In this document: positions 9,188 through 16,255 of the stretch, one piece after another
Layout: each line of letters begins with the position of its first letter
Position numbering within the stretch: the stretch's first letter is position 1
Position numbers and translations under genes: made by a program
Assembly: GCA_965219995.1 (NCBI GenBank)
Contig: CBDCOX010000002.1
Span: forward strand, 4,416,001-4,480,000
DNA: 64,000 nt
Source: Candidatus Latescibacterota bacterium
Lineage (GTDB): Bacteria > Latescibacterota > UBA2968 > GCA-2709665
Direction: 5' to 3'
The notes under the pieces: model-generated
Database searches by the model: none
What the model saw: the letters and a program-made list of their open reading frames with translations, nothing else
What the model was told of the DNA's origin: nothing

Positions 9188-10402
9188 CTACTGACTCAAC
9201 AGGCGTTTCCATCCCCGTGGGACGGCATTGGTTTCCAGCAGCATCAGCACGGCCTGCCGCTGCGCGGTCTCCAGGCTGTCGTCCCGGGCCTTCCAATAGG
9301 CGTCTCCGCGGCGGGTGGCGTTCGGACGCATCGAAAAAGCGTCCCGGGTGAAGACGGAATCGTGTAGCGCGGGGTTCAGCGTGTAGCCGCCAATGCGGGT
9401 GGTCTGTTCGGCCACGGCGCCTGTGCCGGTGGTAATGCGCACGGTTTGCAGAACCGGCAGCCAGTAACGGTCGTAATACAGCGCGTTTTGCTGATAAGTG
9501 CGCAGTTCCTCGACGCCGAGCGGTTTTCGCCCCCTCTTGTTCAACCGCAGGTCGTAGCCCACCAGCGAGAAGTCGTCTGCGGAGATCCAGATCGCCCCTT
9601 CAAGTCCGGGGTTTCTCTTCTTACTCGGCTCGACGCGAATCCTGTGCACAGCCACGTCGCCCATCTGTACGGTTCCGACCAGACGATAGCGGTAATTCTC
9701 CCGGGCGTCGGAGGCCAGCGGAAGCGGACCCACGTCGAAATCGCGGCCATTGAGGCGGCCGCTGCGGATATTGACGATCACGCCGGGATGCATGCCGAAC
9801 TGCTGCGCAGGCGCCTGTCGCGATCGGTACGCCGTGATGACCTGGACGATCTCTCCCGGACTCCGATAGTACCCCAAACCATCGAACTCGATGCGAGCGA
9901 GGACACTTGAACCGGCGCCGGCGGCGGCGTACAAGGTCTGAGTACCCCGCAACGTGAAACGATGCGTTTGGAGATCCGCGTAGCGCGTATGGAAGACGTT
10001 CTCGCGGGGTTCCCGGCCTGCTTCGTCGAGGAGCGCCTTGAGGGACGGTCGCGGAAGGTCGACGTGTGACTTGAGGGGAATGGGAGACGGGGAGAGCAGG
10101 ATGTCCAGCGGGCTCTCCGGAGCCGCAACCGAGTCAATCTCCCGCAGTGCGGTCCGATAGCCCACCAGGGAGACCCTGAGGCGGACCGGGCCCGCGGGCA
10201 GGCGAGAGACCGCGAATCGGCCATGCAGGTCCGTATGGTCCCCCCGCTTGAGTTCCGGCAGGACAACCGTGGCGTACGGAAGCGGCGCGCGCGTCGCACT
10301 GTCTCTCACGGTGCCGGTCAGGGTCGCCGGGTGCGTGGGCGCCTGAAGGAAGTGCAGCGCGATCAAGCCGGCGATGACGTTAGAAAAAAGCCGCGCGGAC
10401 AT
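9188..10402 (-). CDS. Secreted protein with carboxypeptidase-regulatory-like domain and DUF5686-like region
   Basis: Signal peptide; LTGTVRDSATRAPLPYATV...SLVGY N-terminal domain; YWLP and DAYWKAR later. Confidence 0.65.
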   Translation of the reverse strand: MSARLFSNVIAGLIALHFLQAPTHPATLTGTVRDSATRAPLPYATVVLPELKRGDHTDLHGRFAVSRLPAGPVRLRVSLVGYRTALREIDSVAAPESPLDILLSPSPIPLKSHVDLPRPSLKALLDEAGREPRENVFHTRYADLQTHRFTLRGTQTLYAAAGAGSSVLARIEFDGLGYYRSPGEIVQVITAYRSRQAPAQQFGMHPGVIVNIRSGRLNGRDFDVGPLPLASDARENYRYRLVGTVQMGDVAVHRIRVEPSKKRNPGLEGAIWISADDFSLVGYDLRLNKRGRKPLGVEELRTYQQNALYYDRYWLPVLQTVRITTGTGAVAEQTTRIGGYTLNPALHDSVFTRDAFSMRPNATRRGDAYWKARDDSLETAQRQAVLMLLETNAVPRGWKRLLSQ

Positions 10403-11564
10403 CAGCCAGTGCCTGGATGAGACGGTTGATATCTTCCTCTCCGTGGTCGGCCATGAGCGTGAGGCGAAGACGGCTCTCGCCTTCGGGTACCGTCGGAGGC
10501 CGGATGCCGCTGAGGTAGATCCCTTCCTCGAAGAGATGGTCCGAAATCGCCATCGTACGCGTCGCGTCGCCGATCAGTACGGGGATGATCTGGGATCGGG
10601 AGTCCATGAGATCGAAATCGAGGGCTTTCAGTGCGTCATGGACGGTTCGGACGTTTCGCCAGAGCCGGTTTCGCAGGTGGGGACTGGTTTCGATGAGTCC
10701 CAGGGCGACAGAGGCGGCCGCGCATGCGTCGGGCGGCAGCGCCGAGGTGTAGATGAAGGCCGGGGCCCGATTGATCAGCAGGTCGATGAGTTCCGCGTTT
10801 CCGGCGACGAATCCGCCGTAGGCGCCGAGGGCCTTGCTGCCGGAGGTCGTGAGAACGTCGATGCCCCGGTCGATGCCGAAATGGTCGTGAATACCGCGAC
10901 CGGAAGCGCCCAGGACGCCGGTACCATGGGCGTCGTCAACCATCAGGATGGCCCTGTGCCGGTTCGCGGCGTCCACCAGGTCGGTGAGAGGGGCAAGGTC
11001 GCCGTCCATGCTGAACAACCCGTCGGTGACGATCAGCCGGCGCCGGTAATCGATCCGGGTCCGGAGCAGTTCGTCAAGATGGTCGACGTCCCGGTGTCGA
11101 TAGACGAAGGTATCCGCGCGGGAGAGCCGGCAGGCGTCTATGATGCTCCGATGGTTCAGTCTGTCGCTGAAAACCGCATCGTCCTCGCCCGCGAGTGCGC
11201 TCACCGCTCCCAGGTTCGCCATGTAGCCGGTGGGAAAGCAGAGGGCCGATTCGGTTCCCAGGAAACGGGCCACCCGGTCTTCCAGCGTCCGATGCGGTTC
11301 CATGTTTCCGGAAATCAGGCGGGAGGCCGCCGCGCTCAGCCCGTACGTGCGCAGGGCGGCGTCGGCTTCTTCTTTCAGGGCAGGGTGGTTTGCAAGCCCC
11401 AGATAGTTATTGGAGCAGAAGAGGAGACGTTCCTTGCCGTCGATGCGGACCCTGGGACCCTGCGCTCCTTCCACCAGATGAAGGCTGCGGTAAAGCCCGC
11501 GTGATTTCAGAATGTTCAACTCTGTGTCTAGATGAGGAAGCACTGGAAGGGCACCGATGCGCAA
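10380..11564 (-). CDS. bioF: 8-amino-7-oxononanoate synthase (AOS family PLP enzyme)
   Basis: FCSNNYLGLA, DRLNHRSIIDA, TDGLFSMDGD, VDDAHGTG, SKALG and IRPPTVP motifs. Confidence 0.85.
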   Translation of the reverse strand: MRIGALPVLPHLDTELNILKSRGLYRSLHLVEGAQGPRVRIDGKERLLFCSNNYLGLANHPALKEEADAALRTYGLSAAASRLISGNMEPHRTLEDRVARFLGTESALCFPTGYMANLGAVSALAGEDDAVFSDRLNHRSIIDACRLSRADTFVYRHRDVDHLDELLRTRIDYRRRLIVTDGLFSMDGDLAPLTDLVDAANRHRAILMVDDAHGTGVLGASGRGIHDHFGIDRGIDVLTTSGSKALGAYGGFVAGNAELIDLLINRAPAFIYTSALPPDACAAASVALGLIETSPHLRNRLWRNVRTVHDALKALDFDLMDSRSQIIPVLIGDATRTMAISDHLFEEGIYLSGIRPPTVPEGESRLRLTLMADHGEEDINRLIQALADVRAAFF

Positions 11565-11677: not shown

Positions 11678-11822
11678 CCAGACTGTTCATCCGGGCGGGG
11701 ATCAACCGGACCGGTTGGCGGGACTCGCTGCTTGCGGCCAACCGGTTTTTCTGTCCCGTAACCCGCAACATGACAACGCGGCCGCCCGGAAAGCGGCGGA
11801 AGGGCTCGGAGGGACCGGAATC

Positions 11823-14144
11823 ATGGCGGAGGCACGGCAGGGCGCAGACTGGAAATGGATGGCGCTGTTTCCCGCGGTTTCGGGCCTTGTGCTCGGCGCG
11901 GCATTTCCGCCTCTGCCTCTGGGTTTTCTGTCTTATGTCGCGCTGATCCCGCTGCTGCTTGCGGCTGAGCGGCTGCACGGCAGGGCGGCATTCGGCGCCG
12001 GTTTCATTCAGGGGATCTTCTTCTACGGTGTCACGCTATACTGGATCGGAACGATCACGCCGCCCGGCATGGCCGGAGCGGTTTTTTATATGTCCCTGTT
12101 CCGCGGCCTGTTCACGTGGGGGTTCGCCCGTGTCGTTGCGCGATATGGCGGTGCGGGGTTGTGGAGCGCGCCTTTCCTCTGGGTGGGGTTGGAATATTTC
12201 AACTCTCTGGGCGACATGGGGTTTCCATGGGTCGTGCTGGGAAGTTCGCAAACGGCCTGGCTGTGGCTGATCCAATATGCCGAAGTGACGGGGGTGTACG
12301 GGGTTTCGTTCTGGATCGTGGTGGTCAACCTGAGCGTCCTGATGCTCTGGAGGAACCGGGTGCGGCGCAGGATATGGGTTGCGGTCCTGGCGGCCCTTTT
12401 TGCGGGCCCGGCGGCAAACGGGTATCTGGCGTTGAAGGAGGTTCCGGAGGAACATGCCGTGACCGTGGGCGTGGTCCAGCCGGATATGCCGCCGGTGGCC
12501 AAGGAATACCGGGGATTCGATTACAATTTCGGCAAGCTGAAGCCGATGACCGTGGAAGCCGCGGGGCAGGGAGCAAAGCTAGTGGTGTGGCCCGAGACGG
12601 CGGTGGGCTATCTGAAAGGGGAATTGTACCGGCACCATCGCGAGCGGGTGCAGGCAATGGTGGACTCGCTCGGCATCCATCTCTATACGGGAGCATACAG
12701 ACTGGAAGCCGGCGACCCTGTAAAGGTCTTCAACTCCTCGTTTCTGTTCGCGCCGCGCAGGGGGATCACGGGACACTACGACAAGACTCGCCTCGTACCG
12801 TTCGGCGAACGCGCGCCGTTCCCCGAATTGCTGCCCTTTCTGCGAAAGATCAGGTTCACGGGCGGCGGTTTCGTGGGGGGCAACTGGGATTCCGGTGTGA
12901 CCCGGACGGTCTTCGAAGGTCCCGAAGGCCGCTTCTCCGCGCTGATCTGTTACGATTCGGTCTTTCCCGGATTTGCACGGTCCTTCGTGGACCTGGGCGC
13001 CGAGTTTCTGGTGATCATTACCAATGACGGCTGGTTCGGCAGGACTTCCGGACCCTTTCAGCATGCCGAGGCGGCTGTGTTTCGCGCCATCGAGAACCGG
13101 CGCGACGTGGTGCGCTGCGCGAATACGGGCGTTTCCACGTTTATCGACGCCTATGGACGGAAATCGGGGACGACCGGGATCTTCCATCCGGCGGTCGTGA
13201 CGCAAGGGGTGACGCCCCGAACCGCAAAGACGTTCTATACGAGATACGGAGACCTGTTCGGCCAGCTTTGCCTGGTGTTGGGCGTGATTCTGGTGTTGGT
13301 GTCCTTTCGCGGTCATGCGATGGATGCATCCCATTCCATACTGCCACCGGACGCCGAAACACCCGCCGGACGCGCCCCCAAACCGAATTCAGGCGCCGAC
13401 GACAGCGCAATGCCCTTTCTGGATCATCTGGAGGAACTCCGCTGGCGCCTGTTAAAGGGACTGGCGGCCCTCACGGTCGGCGCCGTGATCTGCGGGATAT
13501 TCTCGGACAATATCCTTGGGTGGCTCGTGCTGCCTGTCCGGGAAGCGACCCCTGTCATGAAGCTGTTGGGCGTGACGCCGGTCGATCCGCCGGTCAAGCT
13601 GATCTATTTGAAACCGATGGGGATGTTTCTCGTCAAACTTCAAATCGCCCTTGTCGGCGGGGCGATCCTGGCGCTGCCGGTTCTCCTGTATCAACTGTGG
13701 ATCTTCGTTGCGCCGGGTCTGTTGACAACAGAGCGGCGGTACGTATCTTTTATTGTATTCTCATCGTCGATCTGTTTTGTCCTCGGTGGCGCCATCGCTT
13801 ACGTGAGCGTGGTGCCGCTGTCGTTTCGTTTCCTTATTCTGATCGGCGAAGGGACCGGGGTCGACCCCCAGTTTGATATCGGCTTCTACATCGGTTTCGT
13901 GCTGAGGCTGCTGGTTGCCTTCGGGGTTGTCTTCGAGCTTCCGGTAGCGGCGTTCTTCCTGAGCCGGATCGGTCTGCTGACCGCGGACCGGATGCGTTGG
14001 GGAAGGAGGTACGCGGTTGTGATCGGTTTTGTGCTGGCCGCGCTGCTGACGCCGCCGGACCCGATCTCCCAGCTGATGATGGCGCTCCCGCTGGTACTGC
14101 TTTACGAATTCAGCATCTGGGTGGCGCGTGTTGCCGGCAGATGA
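11823..14144 (+). CDS. lnt-tatC: Fusion of apolipoprotein N-acyltransferase (Lnt) and Tat translocase subunit TatC
   Basis: Lnt motifs WPETA, YDKTRLVPFGE, ICYDS, TNDGWFG, RAIENRR, RCANTG; Pro/Ala linker; TatC motifs MPFLDHLEELRWRL (from 13410), YQLWIFVAPGL, FELP, LTPPDPISQ; no stop between them. Confidence 0.88.
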   Translation: MAEARQGADWKWMALFPAVSGLVLGAAFPPLPLGFLSYVALIPLLLAAERLHGRAAFGAGFIQGIFFYGVTLYWIGTITPPGMAGAVFYMSLFRGLFTWGFARVVARYGGAGLWSAPFLWVGLEYFNSLGDMGFPWVVLGSSQTAWLWLIQYAEVTGVYGVSFWIVVVNLSVLMLWRNRVRRRIWVAVLAALFAGPAANGYLALKEVPEEHAVTVGVVQPDMPPVAKEYRGFDYNFGKLKPMTVEAAGQGAKLVVWPETAVGYLKGELYRHHRERVQAMVDSLGIHLYTGAYRLEAGDPVKVFNSSFLFAPRRGITGHYDKTRLVPFGERAPFPELLPFLRKIRFTGGGFVGGNWDSGVTRTVFEGPEGRFSALICYDSVFPGFARSFVDLGAEFLVIITNDGWFGRTSGPFQHAEAAVFRAIENRRDVVRCANTGVSTFIDAYGRKSGTTGIFHPAVVTQGVTPRTAKTFYTRYGDLFGQLCLVLGVILVLVSFRGHAMDASHSILPPDAETPAGRAPKPNSGADDSAMPFLDHLEELRWRLLKGLAALTVGAVICGIFSDNILGWLVLPVREATPVMKLLGVTPVDPPVKLIYLKPMGMFLVKLQIALVGGAILALPVLLYQLWIFVAPGLLTTERRYVSFIVFSSSICFVLGGAIAYVSVVPLSFRFLILIGEGTGVDPQFDIGFYIGFVLRLLVAFGVVFELPVAAFFLSRIGLLTADRMRWGRRYAVVIGFVLAALLTPPDPISQLMMALPLVLLYEFSIWVARVAGR

Positions 14145-14233
14145 GCCGGGGCTGCGATGCAGGCGTTCCCCTACGCGCCCGGTGCCCGATCTGCGTCCGC
14201 GAGGCGATGTAGACTAACGAGGATTTGTCTTTA

Positions 14234-15211
14234 ATGAGTATTCCGGTTGCAGTTGGCGTTCTCATCGTGTGCTTTGCGGTACTTTCCAAATGCGCGTCGT
14301 GGTTTGTGGACGGAGCGGTAGGGATTGCAGAACACCTGAATGTGCCCAAAATGCTGATCGGCATCGTGCTCGTGAGCCTGGCGACGACCTCACCGGAACT
14401 CGCCGTGTCGGTGCTGGCCGCATTCGAAGGGCACCCGGAGATGGCGTTGGGCAACGCCATCGGGTCGGTCATCGTGGACGACGGCGTCGCGCTGGCGCTG
14501 GGCGTACTCGTTGCGGGCACGCCGATTCTCATCAATCCGTACCTGCTGCGGACAACGGGAATATTTCTGATTGTGGTGGATCTGGCCGCCTATGCGATGG
14601 CGTTCGACGGAACGCTGGACCGGATCGAAGGCGGCGTACTGCTCCTCCTGTTCGTCGCCTACACGGTCTTTACGTACGTCACGCGACGTCGATCAACATC
14701 GGCGGAAGGGAATCGGATCGAGGAACTGAAGGAGATCGAGGAATCCATAGAAGGACGGGGTCCGGGCATGCTGGCGCTCTGGTTCTGCGTGGGGCTGGTC
14801 GGGGTATTGATTTCCAGCCATTTTATCGTGGGATCCGCCGTGGTCATCGCCAAGGCATTGGCCGTGAGCGAAGCCGTGATCGCGCTTACGGTGATCGCCA
14901 TCGGCACGTCGTTGCCGGAGATCGCTACAGGCGTGACGGCCGCCCGGAGAGGGCACGGCGAGATTGTCGTCGGCAATATTCTTGGCGCCGACATTCTGAA
15001 TATCTGCTGGATCGCCGGCGCGTCCGCGGTGGTCAATCCGCTCGTGGTGACGCCCAAAGTGATCCATTTTTCGTTTCCCGCCATGCTGGCGATCGTATTC
15101 GCGATGCTCTTCATGATGCGCACAGGCCACCGGTTGACGCGAGTCGAGGGATTCGTGCTGCTGGCGGTATACGGTGCGTATCTGGCGTTAACTGGAATAT
15201 TGTTCTTCTAG
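14234..15211 (+). CDS. Calcium/sodium antiporter (YrbG/CaCA family)
   Basis: Two alpha repeats: ATTSPEL...GNAIGS and GTSLPEI...GNILGAD. Confidence 0.9.
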   Translation: MSIPVAVGVLIVCFAVLSKCASWFVDGAVGIAEHLNVPKMLIGIVLVSLATTSPELAVSVLAAFEGHPEMALGNAIGSVIVDDGVALALGVLVAGTPILINPYLLRTTGIFLIVVDLAAYAMAFDGTLDRIEGGVLLLLFVAYTVFTYVTRRRSTSAEGNRIEELKEIEESIEGRGPGMLALWFCVGLVGVLISSHFIVGSAVVIAKALAVSEAVIALTVIAIGTSLPEIATGVTAARRGHGEIVVGNILGADILNICWIAGASAVVNPLVVTPKVIHFSFPAMLAIVFAMLFMMRTGHRLTRVEGFVLLAVYGAYLALTGILFF

Positions 15212-15220
15212 AGGATAACG

Positions 15221-16255
15221 ATGAGCGGGATATTCGTGACCGGAGGCGCCGGATTCATCGGCTCGAACTTCGTTCGGTACTGGCTGTCCAGATATCCGGA
15301 TGACAGCGTTGTAAACTACGATCTGCTCACGTATGCCGGGAATCCGGACAACCTGACCGACGTGACGGAAACATATCCCGGAAGGTACGAATTCGTTCAG
15401 GGCGATATCGGCAACTATGAGCTGACGCGGAGTCTTCTGGAACGGCACCGGCCGGACTGTGTCGTCAACTTCGCCGCGGAGTCGCACAACAGCCGCGCTG
15501 TTGTGAATCCCGACGTCTTTTTCGAGACCAACGTGCTGGGAACGCAGCGACTGCTGCAGGCCGCGCACGACGCCGGCGTGCCCAGGGTTCACCACATTTC
15601 CACCTGTGAGGTCTACGGGGACCTGCCGCTCGATTCGGAGGAGAGCTTTTCGGAAACCGACCCGTATCAGCCGCGTACGCCTTACAACGCATCCAAAGCG
15701 GCCGCCGACCTGGTAGTCCGGGCGTACCATCTGACGTTCGGACTGCAGGTTACGATCTCCAACTGCGCGAACAACTACGGACCCCGCCAGTTTCCCGAAA
15801 AGGTGGTCCCTCTGTTTGTCACCCAGCTCCTCAACGGAAAGAAGATGACGCTCTACAAGAGCAGCAGGAACAAACGGGAGTGGCTCCATGTAGACGACCA
15901 CTGCCGGGCGATCGACCTGATCCTGAAGCATGGGAAGATCGGGGAGACGTACAACGTCGGCAGCGGCGTTGAGGTGGACGTCGAGACGATTGCAGACACC
16001 ATTCTGGACGTGCTCGGGCTCGACGGATCGTACAAGGTCTACGTCCCGGACCGCCCCGGACACGACCGCAGGTATCTACTGGATTCGAGCAAGCTGCGTA
16101 CGGAACTCGATTGGGCCCCCAAAATTCCCTTTGAGCATGGGTTCAGGGAAACGGTACTCTGGTACACCGATAATCGCGCCTGGTGGGAACCTCTCCTGAA
16201 ACGTCTCGACGTGGACGAGGAAGCCTGGACGCAGGCTTCAACCCGCCGGTCCTGA
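15221..16255 (+). CDS. rfbB: dTDP-glucose 4,6-dehydratase
   Basis: VTGGAGFIGSNF, FAAESH, YNASKA, NNYGPRQFPEK, DRPGHDRRY. Confidence 0.93.
   Translation: MSGIFVTGGAGFIGSNFVRYWLSRYPDDSVVNYDLLTYAGNPDNLTDVTETYPGRYEFVQGDIGNYELTRSLLERHRPDCVVNFAAESHNSRAVVNPDVFFETNVLGTQRLLQAAHDAGVPRVHHISTCEVYGDLPLDSEESFSETDPYQPRTPYNASKAAADLVVRAYHLTFGLQVTISNCANNYGPRQFPEKVVPLFVTQLLNGKKMTLYKSSRNKREWLHVDDHCRAIDLILKHGKIGETYNVGSGVEVDVETIADTILDVLGLDGSYKVYVPDRPGHDRRYLLDSSKLRTELDWAPKIPFEHGFRETVLWYTDNRAWWEPLLKRLDVDEEAWTQASTRRS

What the first reader, a model, noticed from the sequence alone, without database searches (positions are those of the whole stretch)
11823..14144. Single-polypeptide Lnt-TatC fusion
Seen: a complete Lnt (E/K/C triad motifs present, ICYD in place of the usual ICYE) reads without a stop through a ~30-aa Pro/Ala-rich linker into a complete TatC. 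Known: these are normally separate proteins; the Lnt fusion I know of is mycobacterial Lnt-Ppm1. Inference: Tat export of folded lipoproteins may be physically coupled to their N-acylation. No tatA/tatB lies nearby.
Basis: partly seen in the sequence, partly recalled or inferred. Interest (0 to 1): 0.75.

Follow-up and report, generated by a model that had tools for sequence, protein, structure and literature searches.

The report
Conserved Lnt-TatC fusion protein
One gene here really does encode the enzyme that finishes bacterial lipoproteins (Lnt) joined to the core of the Tat protein-export machine (TatC), and this fusion arose several separate times from two overlapping neighbour genes in one group of uncultured bacteria, though whether the two activities cooperate is still open.

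Summary
Window 11823-14144 (+) is one uninterrupted 773-aa frame. It holds a complete Lnt (TIGR00546, 319 bits), a 33-residue disordered linker and a complete TatC (PF00902, 1-208 of 208).

It is not an error. All 53 genomes of the window's order bridge the junction without a stop. Contigs from two other studies and one metatranscriptome cross it without indels.

It is the genome's only lnt and only tatC. The single tatA, lgt and lspA lie elsewhere.

In the sister families lnt sits directly upstream of tatC. In 23 of 25 cases a tatC start codon lies within 22 nt of the lnt stop, and 10 overlap it as ATGA or ATGnnTGA. A gene tree places the fused genes in four separate, well-supported clades. 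An AU test rejects a single fused clade (p 1.4e-11).

The linker is the old N-terminal tail of TatC. Outside this phylum (labelled Latescibacterota) no fused or adjacent form was found. No paper on it was found in the searches run.

Only about 3 to 9 of roughly 286 lipobox candidates carry a twin-arginine signal.

Verdict: a real, recurrent, apparently undescribed fusion of two known proteins. Interest is moderate.

The parts
11808..11813 (+). Shine-Dalgarno-like GGAGGG about 10 nt before the start codon
   Evidence: Read. One search finds a 4-mer SD upstream of ATG 11823; 47% of 283 confident starts in this genome have one, against 13% of 15,237 interior in-frame ATGs.
11823..14144 (+). lnt-tatC fusion gene (773 codons plus TGA stop)
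   Evidence: The frame is uninterrupted in 53 of 53 genomes of the order.
11880..12332 (+). Lnt N-terminal transmembrane domain (LNT_N, residues 20-170)
   Evidence: Pfam PF20154, 107.5 bits. Helices in the AF2 model.
12465..13160 (+). Lnt nitrilase-like catalytic domain (CN_hydrolase, residues 215-446). Catalytic codons: E258 at 12594-12596, K321 at 12783-12785, C376 at 12948-12950.
   Evidence: Pfam PF00795, 97.6 bits. Aligned to E267, K335 and C387 of 5xhq_A. Invariant in A1.
13233..13307 (+). Last Lnt transmembrane helix (residues 471-495), which returns the chain to the cytoplasm
   Evidence: AF2 helix 471-495. Hydropathy peak at 474-502. Aligns to the C-terminal helix of 5xhq_A up to residue 510.
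13311..13409 (+). Linker (residues 497-529): disordered, acidic, Pro/Ala-rich. It corresponds to the N-terminal tail of stand-alone TatC in relatives.
   Evidence: pLDDT under 50 and no secondary structure. Variable in length and sequence in A1. Stand-alone TatCs of the phylum carry a tail of about 30-40 aa before the same motif.
13410..14141 (+). TatC (residues 530-773), beginning with the conserved MPFLDHLEELR motif
   Evidence: PF00902, 1-208 of 208. Residues 530-772 align to 1-231 of Aquifex TatC 4b4a_A. The motif is invariant in 23 of 23 sequences.

Best explanation
This is a genuine, inherited gene fusion. It encodes one inner-membrane polypeptide of about 14 transmembrane helices.

The N-terminal two thirds are a complete apolipoprotein N-acyltransferase: eight helices plus a periplasmic nitrilase-like domain with the Glu-Lys-Cys triad. 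Its last helix brings the chain back to the cytoplasm. A flexible tether of about 33 residues follows, which is the former N-terminal tail of TatC. It leads into a complete six-helix TatC that also starts in the cytoplasm, so the two topologies fit without any adaptor.

The fusion arose because, in this class of bacteria, lnt lies immediately upstream of tatC and the two are translationally coupled: the stop and start overlap or lie a few bases apart. One base change or a one-base indel therefore merges them. This happened at least four times. In the window's order the fused form became fixed.

Shown: the frame, the domains, the conserved catalytic and TatC residues, the sole-copy status, the ancestral arrangement and the repeated origin.

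Inferred: that each half does its normal job (third acylation of lipoproteins; signal-peptide receptor of a minimal TatA/TatC translocase). Also inferred: that the main effect of fusion is obligatory 1:1 co-production and co-localisation, tolerated or mildly useful, rather than a new mechanism.
For: - **Open frame and domains:**
- **Catalytic residues:** the triad and E343/Y388 equivalents are conserved.
- **TatC part:** it aligns end to end with solved TatC chains. Its PGL...ER, FE[LM]P and TPPDP motifs are invariant in 23 of 23 sequences.
- **Sole copies:** one tatC and one lnt over cut-off in the genome. One each of tatA, lgt and lspA lies elsewhere.
- **Conservation in the order:** 53 of 53 genomes bridge the junction with no stop, at 56-94% identity.
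- **Spread in the phylum:** at least 84 of 168 genomes have the fused frame.
- **Public protein database:** 118 of the 120 best TatC-part hits of 425-1353 aa carry CN_hydrolase plus TatC.
- **Independent contigs:** contigs from other studies and one metatranscriptome contig cross 13300-13410 with substitutions only and no indels.
- **Ancestral state:** 23 of 25 adjacent-unfused relatives have a tatC start within 22 nt of the lnt stop. Seven overlap as ATGA, three as ATGnnTGA and four as stop-NNN-ATG in frame.
- **Repeated origin:** in a tree of 70 rows the fused genes form 4 separate clades, each with SH-aLRT 100, and a minimum of 4 changes is forced by starred branches. An AU test rejects one fused clade (delta lnL 489, p 1.4e-11).
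- **Topology:** Lnt has eight helices with both termini in the cytoplasm (PMC8048626, passage of section 3.3 read).
- **Linker:** predicted disordered.
Against: - No protein-level data exist, so the full-length product is inferred.
- Met530, at the exact position of Met1 of Aquifex TatC, is ATG in 39 of 40 fused genes. A separate TatC made by internal initiation is therefore not excluded.
- 53% of confident starts in this genome also lack an SD-like 4-mer. Its absence before ATG 13410 is weak evidence.
- Class-wide adjacency, translational coupling and four independent fusions could reflect selection for a functional link. That would make the 'no new mechanism' part too conservative.
- W237 of the E. 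coli enzyme is not conserved in the window's type, and E389 is Asp. The importance of those two residues is recalled from the literature and was not tested here.
- The tree is a 'quick' IQ-TREE search built from the two proteins themselves. The fused group was named after the first tree had been seen.
Confidence: 0.72

Rival explanations
1. Adaptive coupling. Tethering Lnt to the Tat receptor places the last lipoprotein-modifying enzyme at the exit site of folded, cofactor-bearing Tat substrates. Tat-exported lipoproteins would then be N-acylated efficiently. The repeated fusions would be the product of selection for proximity.
For: - lnt-tatC adjacency with overlapping stop and start is kept across a whole class and was not found elsewhere. 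None of 64 TatC loci of other phyla has an Lnt-like hit within 1 kb upstream. In the other classes of the phylum the two genes are apart.
- There were four independent fusions and no reversal in the sample.
- The genome has plausible Tat lipoproteins. Examples are a molybdopterin oxidoreductase with a Pfam TAT_signal (23.5 bits, cut-off 22.7) and an ...MLVGC lipobox, an FAD/NAD-binding protein with TRRDFI...LLSGC, and a DctP-type binding protein with ERRDFLKK...IAGC.
- The family-level linker keeps a short [ST]ILP motif.
Against: - Lnt acts only after Lgt and LspA, and both are encoded far away and are not fused.
- In a crude scan only 9 ORFs pass both the lipobox and the Tat-like filter, with 3-4 convincing by eye. 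That compares with 286 lipobox candidates and 58 (strict) to 220 (relaxed) Tat-like candidates. Most Lnt substrates would therefore come through Sec.
- Sister species with separate genes persist within the same genera.
- The linker is variable and predicted to be disordered.
- A fusion needs only one mutation here, so recurrence may reflect mutational ease.
Confidence: 0.17
2. Fused reading frame but separate proteins. TatC is also, or mainly, made on its own, either by internal initiation at the conserved Met530 (ATG 13410) or by proteolytic cleavage in the linker. The cell would then contain ordinary Lnt and TatC.
For: - Met530 aligns with Met1 of Aquifex TatC.
- It is ATG in 39 of 40 fused and 24 of 24 unfused genes examined.
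- The linker is disordered, so it would be accessible to proteases.
- An SD-like 4-mer precedes this ATG in 8 of 40 fused genes, mainly outside the window's genus.
Against: - In the window's genus 0 of 12 genes have an SD-like 4-mer before this ATG. The window has none before 13320 or 13410.
- Overall, 8 of 40 is close to the 13% background for interior ATGs and far from the 47% seen at real starts.
- One fused genome has ATA (Ile) at this codon.
- The same Met is equally conserved in unfused TatCs whose start lies about 20-40 codons upstream at the lnt stop. The whole MPFLDHLEELR motif is invariant, so the Met may simply be a structural residue.
Confidence: 0.12
3. Assembly or sequencing artefact, or a recent pseudogene-like read-through in this one genome.
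For: None found.
Against: - 53 of 53 genomes of the order, many of them single-contig assemblies, have the open junction.
- The fused form is spread over sequences from 97% down to 42% identity.
- Contigs of other studies cross the junction without indels.
- All five substitutions listed between 13299 and 13409 keep the frame open: V to L, K to E and three silent.
Confidence: 0.01

Closest known systems
Stand-alone Lnt (E. coli Lnt; PDB 5xhq, 5n6h, 5vrg)
   Same: Same domain order (LNT_N plus CN_hydrolase plus a final helix). The Glu-Lys-Cys triad aligns. It scores far above the equivalog cut-off.
   Different: Here the cytoplasmic C-terminus continues into TatC. Asp replaces E389, and W237 is not conserved.
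Stand-alone TatC (Aquifex aeolicus TatC, PDB 4b4a/4hts; TatC chains in 9dzz, 9e02)
   Same: Full-length alignment of residues 530-772 to 1-231 of 4b4a_A. The family motifs are conserved. One TatA partner is present in the genome.
   Different: The N-terminus is not free. It is tethered through about 33 residues to an eight-helix enzyme. Nearly every genome of the phylum has a single TatA/B-family gene, so this looks like a minimal TatA/TatC system. The Gram-positive TatAC comparison is recalled, not tested.
Mycobacterial Lnt-Ppm1 two-domain protein
   Same: Lnt joined in one polypeptide to another membrane-associated envelope-biogenesis enzyme.
   Different: The partner is a polyprenol-phosphate-mannose synthase, not a translocase subunit, and the phylum is different. 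No sequence comparison was made here.
YbeY-Lnt fusions noted earlier in this scan (e1-699875 and six similar notes)
   Same: Lnt fused to its operon neighbour. Those notes read it as a by-product of tight gene packing.
   Different: In those cases the partner is fused to the N-terminus of Lnt and is a soluble RNase, in Alphaproteobacteria. I did not check those notes.
Tat-exported lipoproteins of Streptomyces and haloarchaea (PMC2945643, seen in a search listing only; the rest is recalled)
   Same: They show that proteins can be exported by Tat and then lipid-modified. This is the pathway that the coupling idea needs.
   Different: No physical link between TatC and a lipoprotein-modifying enzyme is described there, as far as I saw or recall.

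Membership tests
Apolipoprotein N-acyltransferase (Lnt, TIGR00546 / PF20154+PF00795) | Scores above the curated equivalog cut-off | tested here: met
   319.5 bits against a cut-off of 132.9. In the genome search, 322.3 bits; the six other hits score 46 bits or less.
Apolipoprotein N-acyltransferase (Lnt, TIGR00546 / PF20154+PF00795) | Glu-Lys-Cys catalytic triad of the nitrilase superfamily | tested here: met
   E258, K321 and C376 align to E267, K335 and C387 of 5xhq_A. Invariant in 23 of 23 sequences.
Apolipoprotein N-acyltransferase (Lnt, TIGR00546 / PF20154+PF00795) | Membrane domain before, and one helix after, the periplasmic domain, so that both termini are cytoplasmic | tested here: met
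   LNT_N at 20-170. Helix 471-495 after the catalytic domain. The alignment to 5xhq_A runs to residue 510 of 516. The topology rule comes from PMC8048626 section 3.3. The orientation itself is inferred.
Apolipoprotein N-acyltransferase (Lnt, TIGR00546 / PF20154+PF00795) | N-acylation of diacylglyceryl-cysteine of apolipoproteins | not testable with these tools
   Needs a biochemical assay or complementation.
TatC (PF00902 / TIGR00945) | Full-length match above the curated cut-offs | tested here: met
   PF00902 1-208 of 208, 224.3 bits against 25.1. TIGR00945 199.2 bits against 132.7.
TatC (PF00902 / TIGR00945) | Six-helix core as in the solved structures | tested here: met
   Residues 530-772 align to 1-231 of 4b4a_A. 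Long helices in the AF2 model at 531-559, 598-629, 635-675, 686-715, 721-742 and 747-772. Six hydropathy peaks.
TatC (PF00902 / TIGR00945) | Conserved signal-peptide-binding acidic residues in the N-terminal region and first cytoplasmic loop | tested here: inconclusive
   E537/E538 in HLEELR and E637 in PGLLTTER are invariant in A1. Their equivalence to the E. coli residues is recalled and was not aligned here.
TatC (PF00902 / TIGR00945) | A TatA-family partner encoded in the genome | tested here: met
   One hit at 64.6 bits, a 74-aa ORF. 159 of 168 genomes of the phylum have a hit, almost all a single one.
Dedicated Tat-lipoprotein maturation module (hypothetical) | Substrates with both a twin-arginine signal and a lipobox form a sizeable class | tested here: inconclusive
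   A crude regular-expression scan of 3,557 ORFs gave 9 with both features, 3-4 convincing by eye, against 286 lipobox candidates. Five of the 9 were scanned with Pfam. No comparison with unfused genomes was possible.
Dedicated Tat-lipoprotein maturation module (hypothetical) | A specific Lnt-TatC interface | not tested
   No usable result was obtained; see Tried and rejected.

The most novel reading that the evidence does not exclude
Lnt is held on the Tat receptor complex on purpose. In these bacteria, folded cofactor-bearing lipoproteins that leave through Tat would be handed directly to a tethered N-acyltransferase. The four independent fusions, and the class-wide overlap of the two genes, would then be footprints of selection for that proximity. 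This would be the first physical link between a protein translocase and a lipoprotein-modifying enzyme.
Probability: 0.15. Interest if true: 0.8.

Novelty: new variant of a known kind. Interest (0 to 1): 0.5.

Why it matters
Lnt and TatC are both well studied, and Lnt is considered an antibacterial target. Both are normally treated as independent machines.

A natural protein that joins them could be informative for two reasons. It is fixed in a whole order of uncultured, partly sponge- and marine-associated bacteria, and it was re-invented four times. This gives four ready-made evolutionary contrasts for asking whether Tat export and lipoprotein maturation are functionally linked.

It also shows that TatC tolerates a large membrane protein on its N-terminus, which is relevant to models of how TatC units pack in the receptor complex.

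In practice, the public annotation 'apolipoprotein N-acyltransferase' hides the only tatC of these genomes. Automated metabolic reconstructions may therefore wrongly score them as lacking the Tat pathway.

If the fusion is merely a neutral consequence of overlapping genes, it remains a clear example of how translational coupling predisposes genes to fusion.

Tried and rejected
- **Complex prediction** (Lnt part 1-500 against TatC part 526-773, each with the 23-row alignment). It returned 'no answer' (score 0.00, controls not run). This is no evidence either way.
- **ATG 13320 as the ancestral tatC start.** I first read the window's '...FRG-H-AM...' as the in-frame stop-NNN-ATG of distant unfused relatives, with the stop replaced by His. 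The Met is not conserved even within the family, so I dropped this reading.
- **TatA/B copy number against fusion state.** Almost every genome has one copy whether fused or not, so there is no correlation.
- **Gemmatimonadota as a second phylum with the fusion.** Some hits carry Gemmatimon* names. One such locus is 89% identical to the window protein over residues 1-766. The 50%-identity representative library shows only two fused clusters. I therefore treat those names as submitter labels and not as a wider range.
- **Literature searches**. They covered combinations of TatC, Lnt, fusion, fused, Latescibacter, twin-arginine and single polypeptide. No paper on this fusion was found. The one review that held all the terms uses them in unrelated places. 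Supplementary tables, such as domain-architecture lists, could not be searched and might mention it. PMC3573685 (TatC structure) is not held, so TatC topology rests on the alignment to 4b4a and on recall.
- **RNA evidence.** One metatranscriptome contig covers 13008-13559. Contigs cannot show transcript ends, and DNA carry-over is possible, so it says nothing about an internal start.
- **Parts of runs without cover** are not interpreted.
Full report
**Observation**

The + strand frame is open from TTG 11715 through ATG 11823 to the TGA at 14142-14144. From ATG 11823 it gives 773 residues. GGAGGG lies at 11808-11813. In this genome 47% of 283 confidently placed starts have such a 4-mer, against 13% of 15,237 interior in-frame ATGs.

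Pfam finds LNT_N (20-170), CN_hydrolase (215-446) and a full-length TatC (534-756, 1-208 of 208). NCBIfam's equivalog models for lnt and tatC are both passed by a wide margin.

Against solved structures, residues 19-498 align to E. coli-type Lnt 5xhq_A, with E258, K321, E329, C376 and Y377 opposite E267, K335, E343, C387 and Y388. Residues 530-772 align to residues 1-231 of Aquifex TatC 4b4a_A.

A hydropathy scan and an AlphaFold2 model (mean pLDDT 73.5, pTM 0.62) show several features. There is a helix at 471-495 after the catalytic domain. The segment 498-530 has no structure and pLDDT under 50. The TatC helices follow.

**Not an error, and the only copies**

A search of the public protein collection used the TatC part but was restricted to proteins of 425-1353 aa. 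It gave 450 hits. Of the 120 best, 113 carry LNT_N plus CN_hydrolase plus TatC, 5 carry CN_hydrolase plus TatC, and 2 carry TatC alone. Identities run from 97% to about 45%.

In the window's own genome there is one TatC hit and one Lnt hit over cut-off, both in this gene. One tatA (74 aa) lies about 3.2 Mb away. One lgt and one lspA lie elsewhere.

Scanning all 168 genomes of the phylum with the whole protein, the 53 genomes of the window's order (22 in family f1 including the window, 31 in f2) all bridge the junction without a stop. Fifty do so in one match over roughly residues 1-773. One match begins at residue 56. Two are cut by contig ends but still span the junction.

Public runs were also checked. 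A 22-kb contig is identical and may be the source. Contigs from two sponge-metagenome runs of other studies cross the junction with 12 and 30 substitutions and no gaps. A metatranscriptome contig covers 13008-13559 with 19 substitutions and no gaps. The five substitutions listed between 13299 and 13409 are V to L, K to E and three silent changes. A further 57 differences across the stretch were not shown to me.

**How it arose**

In the rest of the class the two genes are neighbours. I fetched 62 further loci plus outgroups and read the junctions.

Of 25 relatives with lnt directly upstream of a separate tatC, 23 have a candidate tatC start within 22 nt of the lnt stop:
- 7 as ATGA overlaps;
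- 3 as ATGnnTGA;
- 4 as an in-frame stop-NNN-ATG;
- the others a few bases either side.

The remaining two have gaps of 40 and 61 nt.

The roughly 15-40 residues between that start and the invariant MPFLDHLEELR motif are an acidic tail. Stand-alone TatCs of other classes of the phylum carry it too. The 'linker' of the fusion is therefore the old TatC tail, and a single substitution or 1-nt indel suffices to fuse the genes.

In the other classes lnt and tatC lie on different contigs or megabases apart. Among 64 TatC loci from other phyla, none has an Lnt-like hit in the 1 kb upstream.

**Repeated origin**

I built a maximum-likelihood tree of concatenated Lnt and TatC cores. It has 70 rows: 40 fused, 25 adjacent-unfused and 5 not adjacent, including 4 outgroup genomes. 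The junction itself was excluded.

Three fetched loci were left out. Two had no Lnt within the fetched stretch, and one had no detectable TatC motif. Genomes I did not fetch are also absent.

The tree places the fused genes in four clades, each with SH-aLRT 100:
- the window's whole order (27 rows);
- genus g30;
- part of g31;
- part of g25.

Each is sister to unfused lineages. Four changes are the minimum, and starred branches force all four. None of 500 label shuffles was as low.

Holding all fused rows together costs 489 log-likelihood units (p-AU 1.4e-11). I named the group by its frame state, but only after I had seen the tree.

With the outgroup root, and because a fission would need a new stop and a new start together, I read all four changes as gains. 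That direction is an inference.

At least 84 of 168 genomes carry the fused frame. Of these, 83 have open frames of 700 aa or more in the listed rows, and one more is bridged. Sixteen matches were not listed.

**Range and prior knowledge**

In the 1.84-billion-protein representative library, only two of the best 150 hits match both halves (785 aa and 804 aa). The rest are stand-alone Lnts, fragments, or Lnts with other extensions. A fused protein from another lineage would have scored near the top.

The ESM Atlas shows one fused cluster of 53 members, most commonly labelled Candidatus Latescibacterota.

In the species-representative genome collection, 16 of the 80 best loci hold an Lnt-like hit. 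Eleven are labelled Latescibacter*, four Gemmatimon* and one 'uncultured bacterium'. One Gemmatimon*-labelled locus is 89% identical to the window protein, so I treat these as submitter labels.

Eight full-text searches found no paper describing the fusion (checked in 71). Public records name these proteins only 'apolipoprotein N-acyltransferase' or 'hypothetical'.

**What it does**

Lnt has eight helices with both termini in the cytoplasm (PMC8048626, section 3.3 passage). TatC starts in the cytoplasm; this is recalled, and is consistent with the alignment to 4b4a. The chain can therefore pass from one to the other without an extra helix.

All catalytic and family-defining residues are kept, and no other copy of either gene exists. 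I conclude that both halves are functional and that the protein is a bifunctional Lnt-TatC working with the single TatA.

Whether the fusion adds anything beyond forced 1:1 co-production is open.

Evidence for a functional link:
- the class-wide coupling of the two genes and the four fusions;
- the existence of plausible Tat lipoproteins: a molybdopterin oxidoreductase with a Pfam TAT_signal and a lipobox, an FAD/NAD-binding protein, and a DctP-type binding protein.

Evidence against:
- my crude scan finds only 9 ORFs with both signals among 286 lipobox candidates in 3,557 ORFs;
- Lgt and LspA, which act first, are unlinked;
- fused and unfused species coexist within genera;
- the fusion is mutationally cheap.

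**Internal start**

Met530 coincides with Met1 of Aquifex TatC. It is ATG in 39 of 40 fused and 24 of 24 unfused genes examined.

It is just as conserved where the tatC start clearly lies upstream. One fused genome has ATA at this codon. An SD-like 4-mer precedes it in only 8 of 40 fused genes, and in 0 of 12 in the window's genus. The window has none before 13320 or 13410.

A separate TatC product is therefore unsupported but not excluded.

**Verdict**

This is a real, conserved and apparently undescribed fusion of two well-known membrane proteins. It has a clear evolutionary origin and a repeated history. It is a new variant of known kinds, not a new system. The coupling hypothesis is attractive and testable but currently weak.

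Noticed in passing
window 13335-13349 (residues 505-509, SILPP) and the same place in loci L036-L052: The otherwise variable linker keeps a short [ST]ILP motif in all 18 family-f1 genes examined (the window plus 17 loci, genera g1-g5). Family f2 instead shows a loose G-T-[VI]-P/A stretch. It could be a docking or cleavage motif, or just shared ancestry.
   Followed up: no
genomes of family f4, e.g. G167:C1:2063588 against 2070297, and G097:C4:248777 against 239362: In many f4 genomes the single tatA lies only about 5-13 kb from lnt-tatC. In the window's order it is megabases away.
   Followed up: no
window 13410-13448: High-depth contigs of other organisms in the same runs match only these 39 bases (the MPFLDHLEELRWR codons) and then diverge. 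The motif is therefore conserved at the nucleotide level across different community members (tables 7 and 8).
   Followed up: no
G011-G023 (family f10); proteins P0103, P0107: TatC genes of another class sit in open frames of about 400-465 aa. Database relatives of 428-431 aa carry only the TatC domain. This suggests a different, unexplained N-terminal extension of TatC.
   Followed up: no
proteins P0169 (842 aa), P0170 (826 aa), P0197 (735 aa), P0191 (688 aa): These long relatives match only the Lnt part of the query, so other Lnt fusions of unknown partner exist in public data.
   Followed up: no
L002 404-1120 (+), just upstream of tatA at 1489-1713: By eye, the ORF before the genome's only tatA carries a D-G-x2-A-R...G-x3-D-x3-D pattern. 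I recall this as the CDP-alcohol phosphatidyltransferase motif, so it may be a phospholipid synthase. It was not scanned against any library.
   Followed up: no
L186 (G000:C2:3124466-3125536, - strand), L185, L187: Three candidate Tat-exported lipoproteins: a molybdopterin oxidoreductase, an FAD/NAD-binding protein and a DctP-type solute-binding protein. Each has a twin-arginine motif followed by a lipobox cysteine.
   Followed up: partly
window 10380-11564 (-), 14225-15211 (+), 15221-16255 (+): The flanking genes are a class I/II aminotransferase (divergent, upstream), a Na/Ca-exchanger-family membrane protein and an NAD-dependent sugar dehydratase. Nothing relates to export or lipoproteins, and the fusion gene heads its own transcription unit.
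   Followed up: partly
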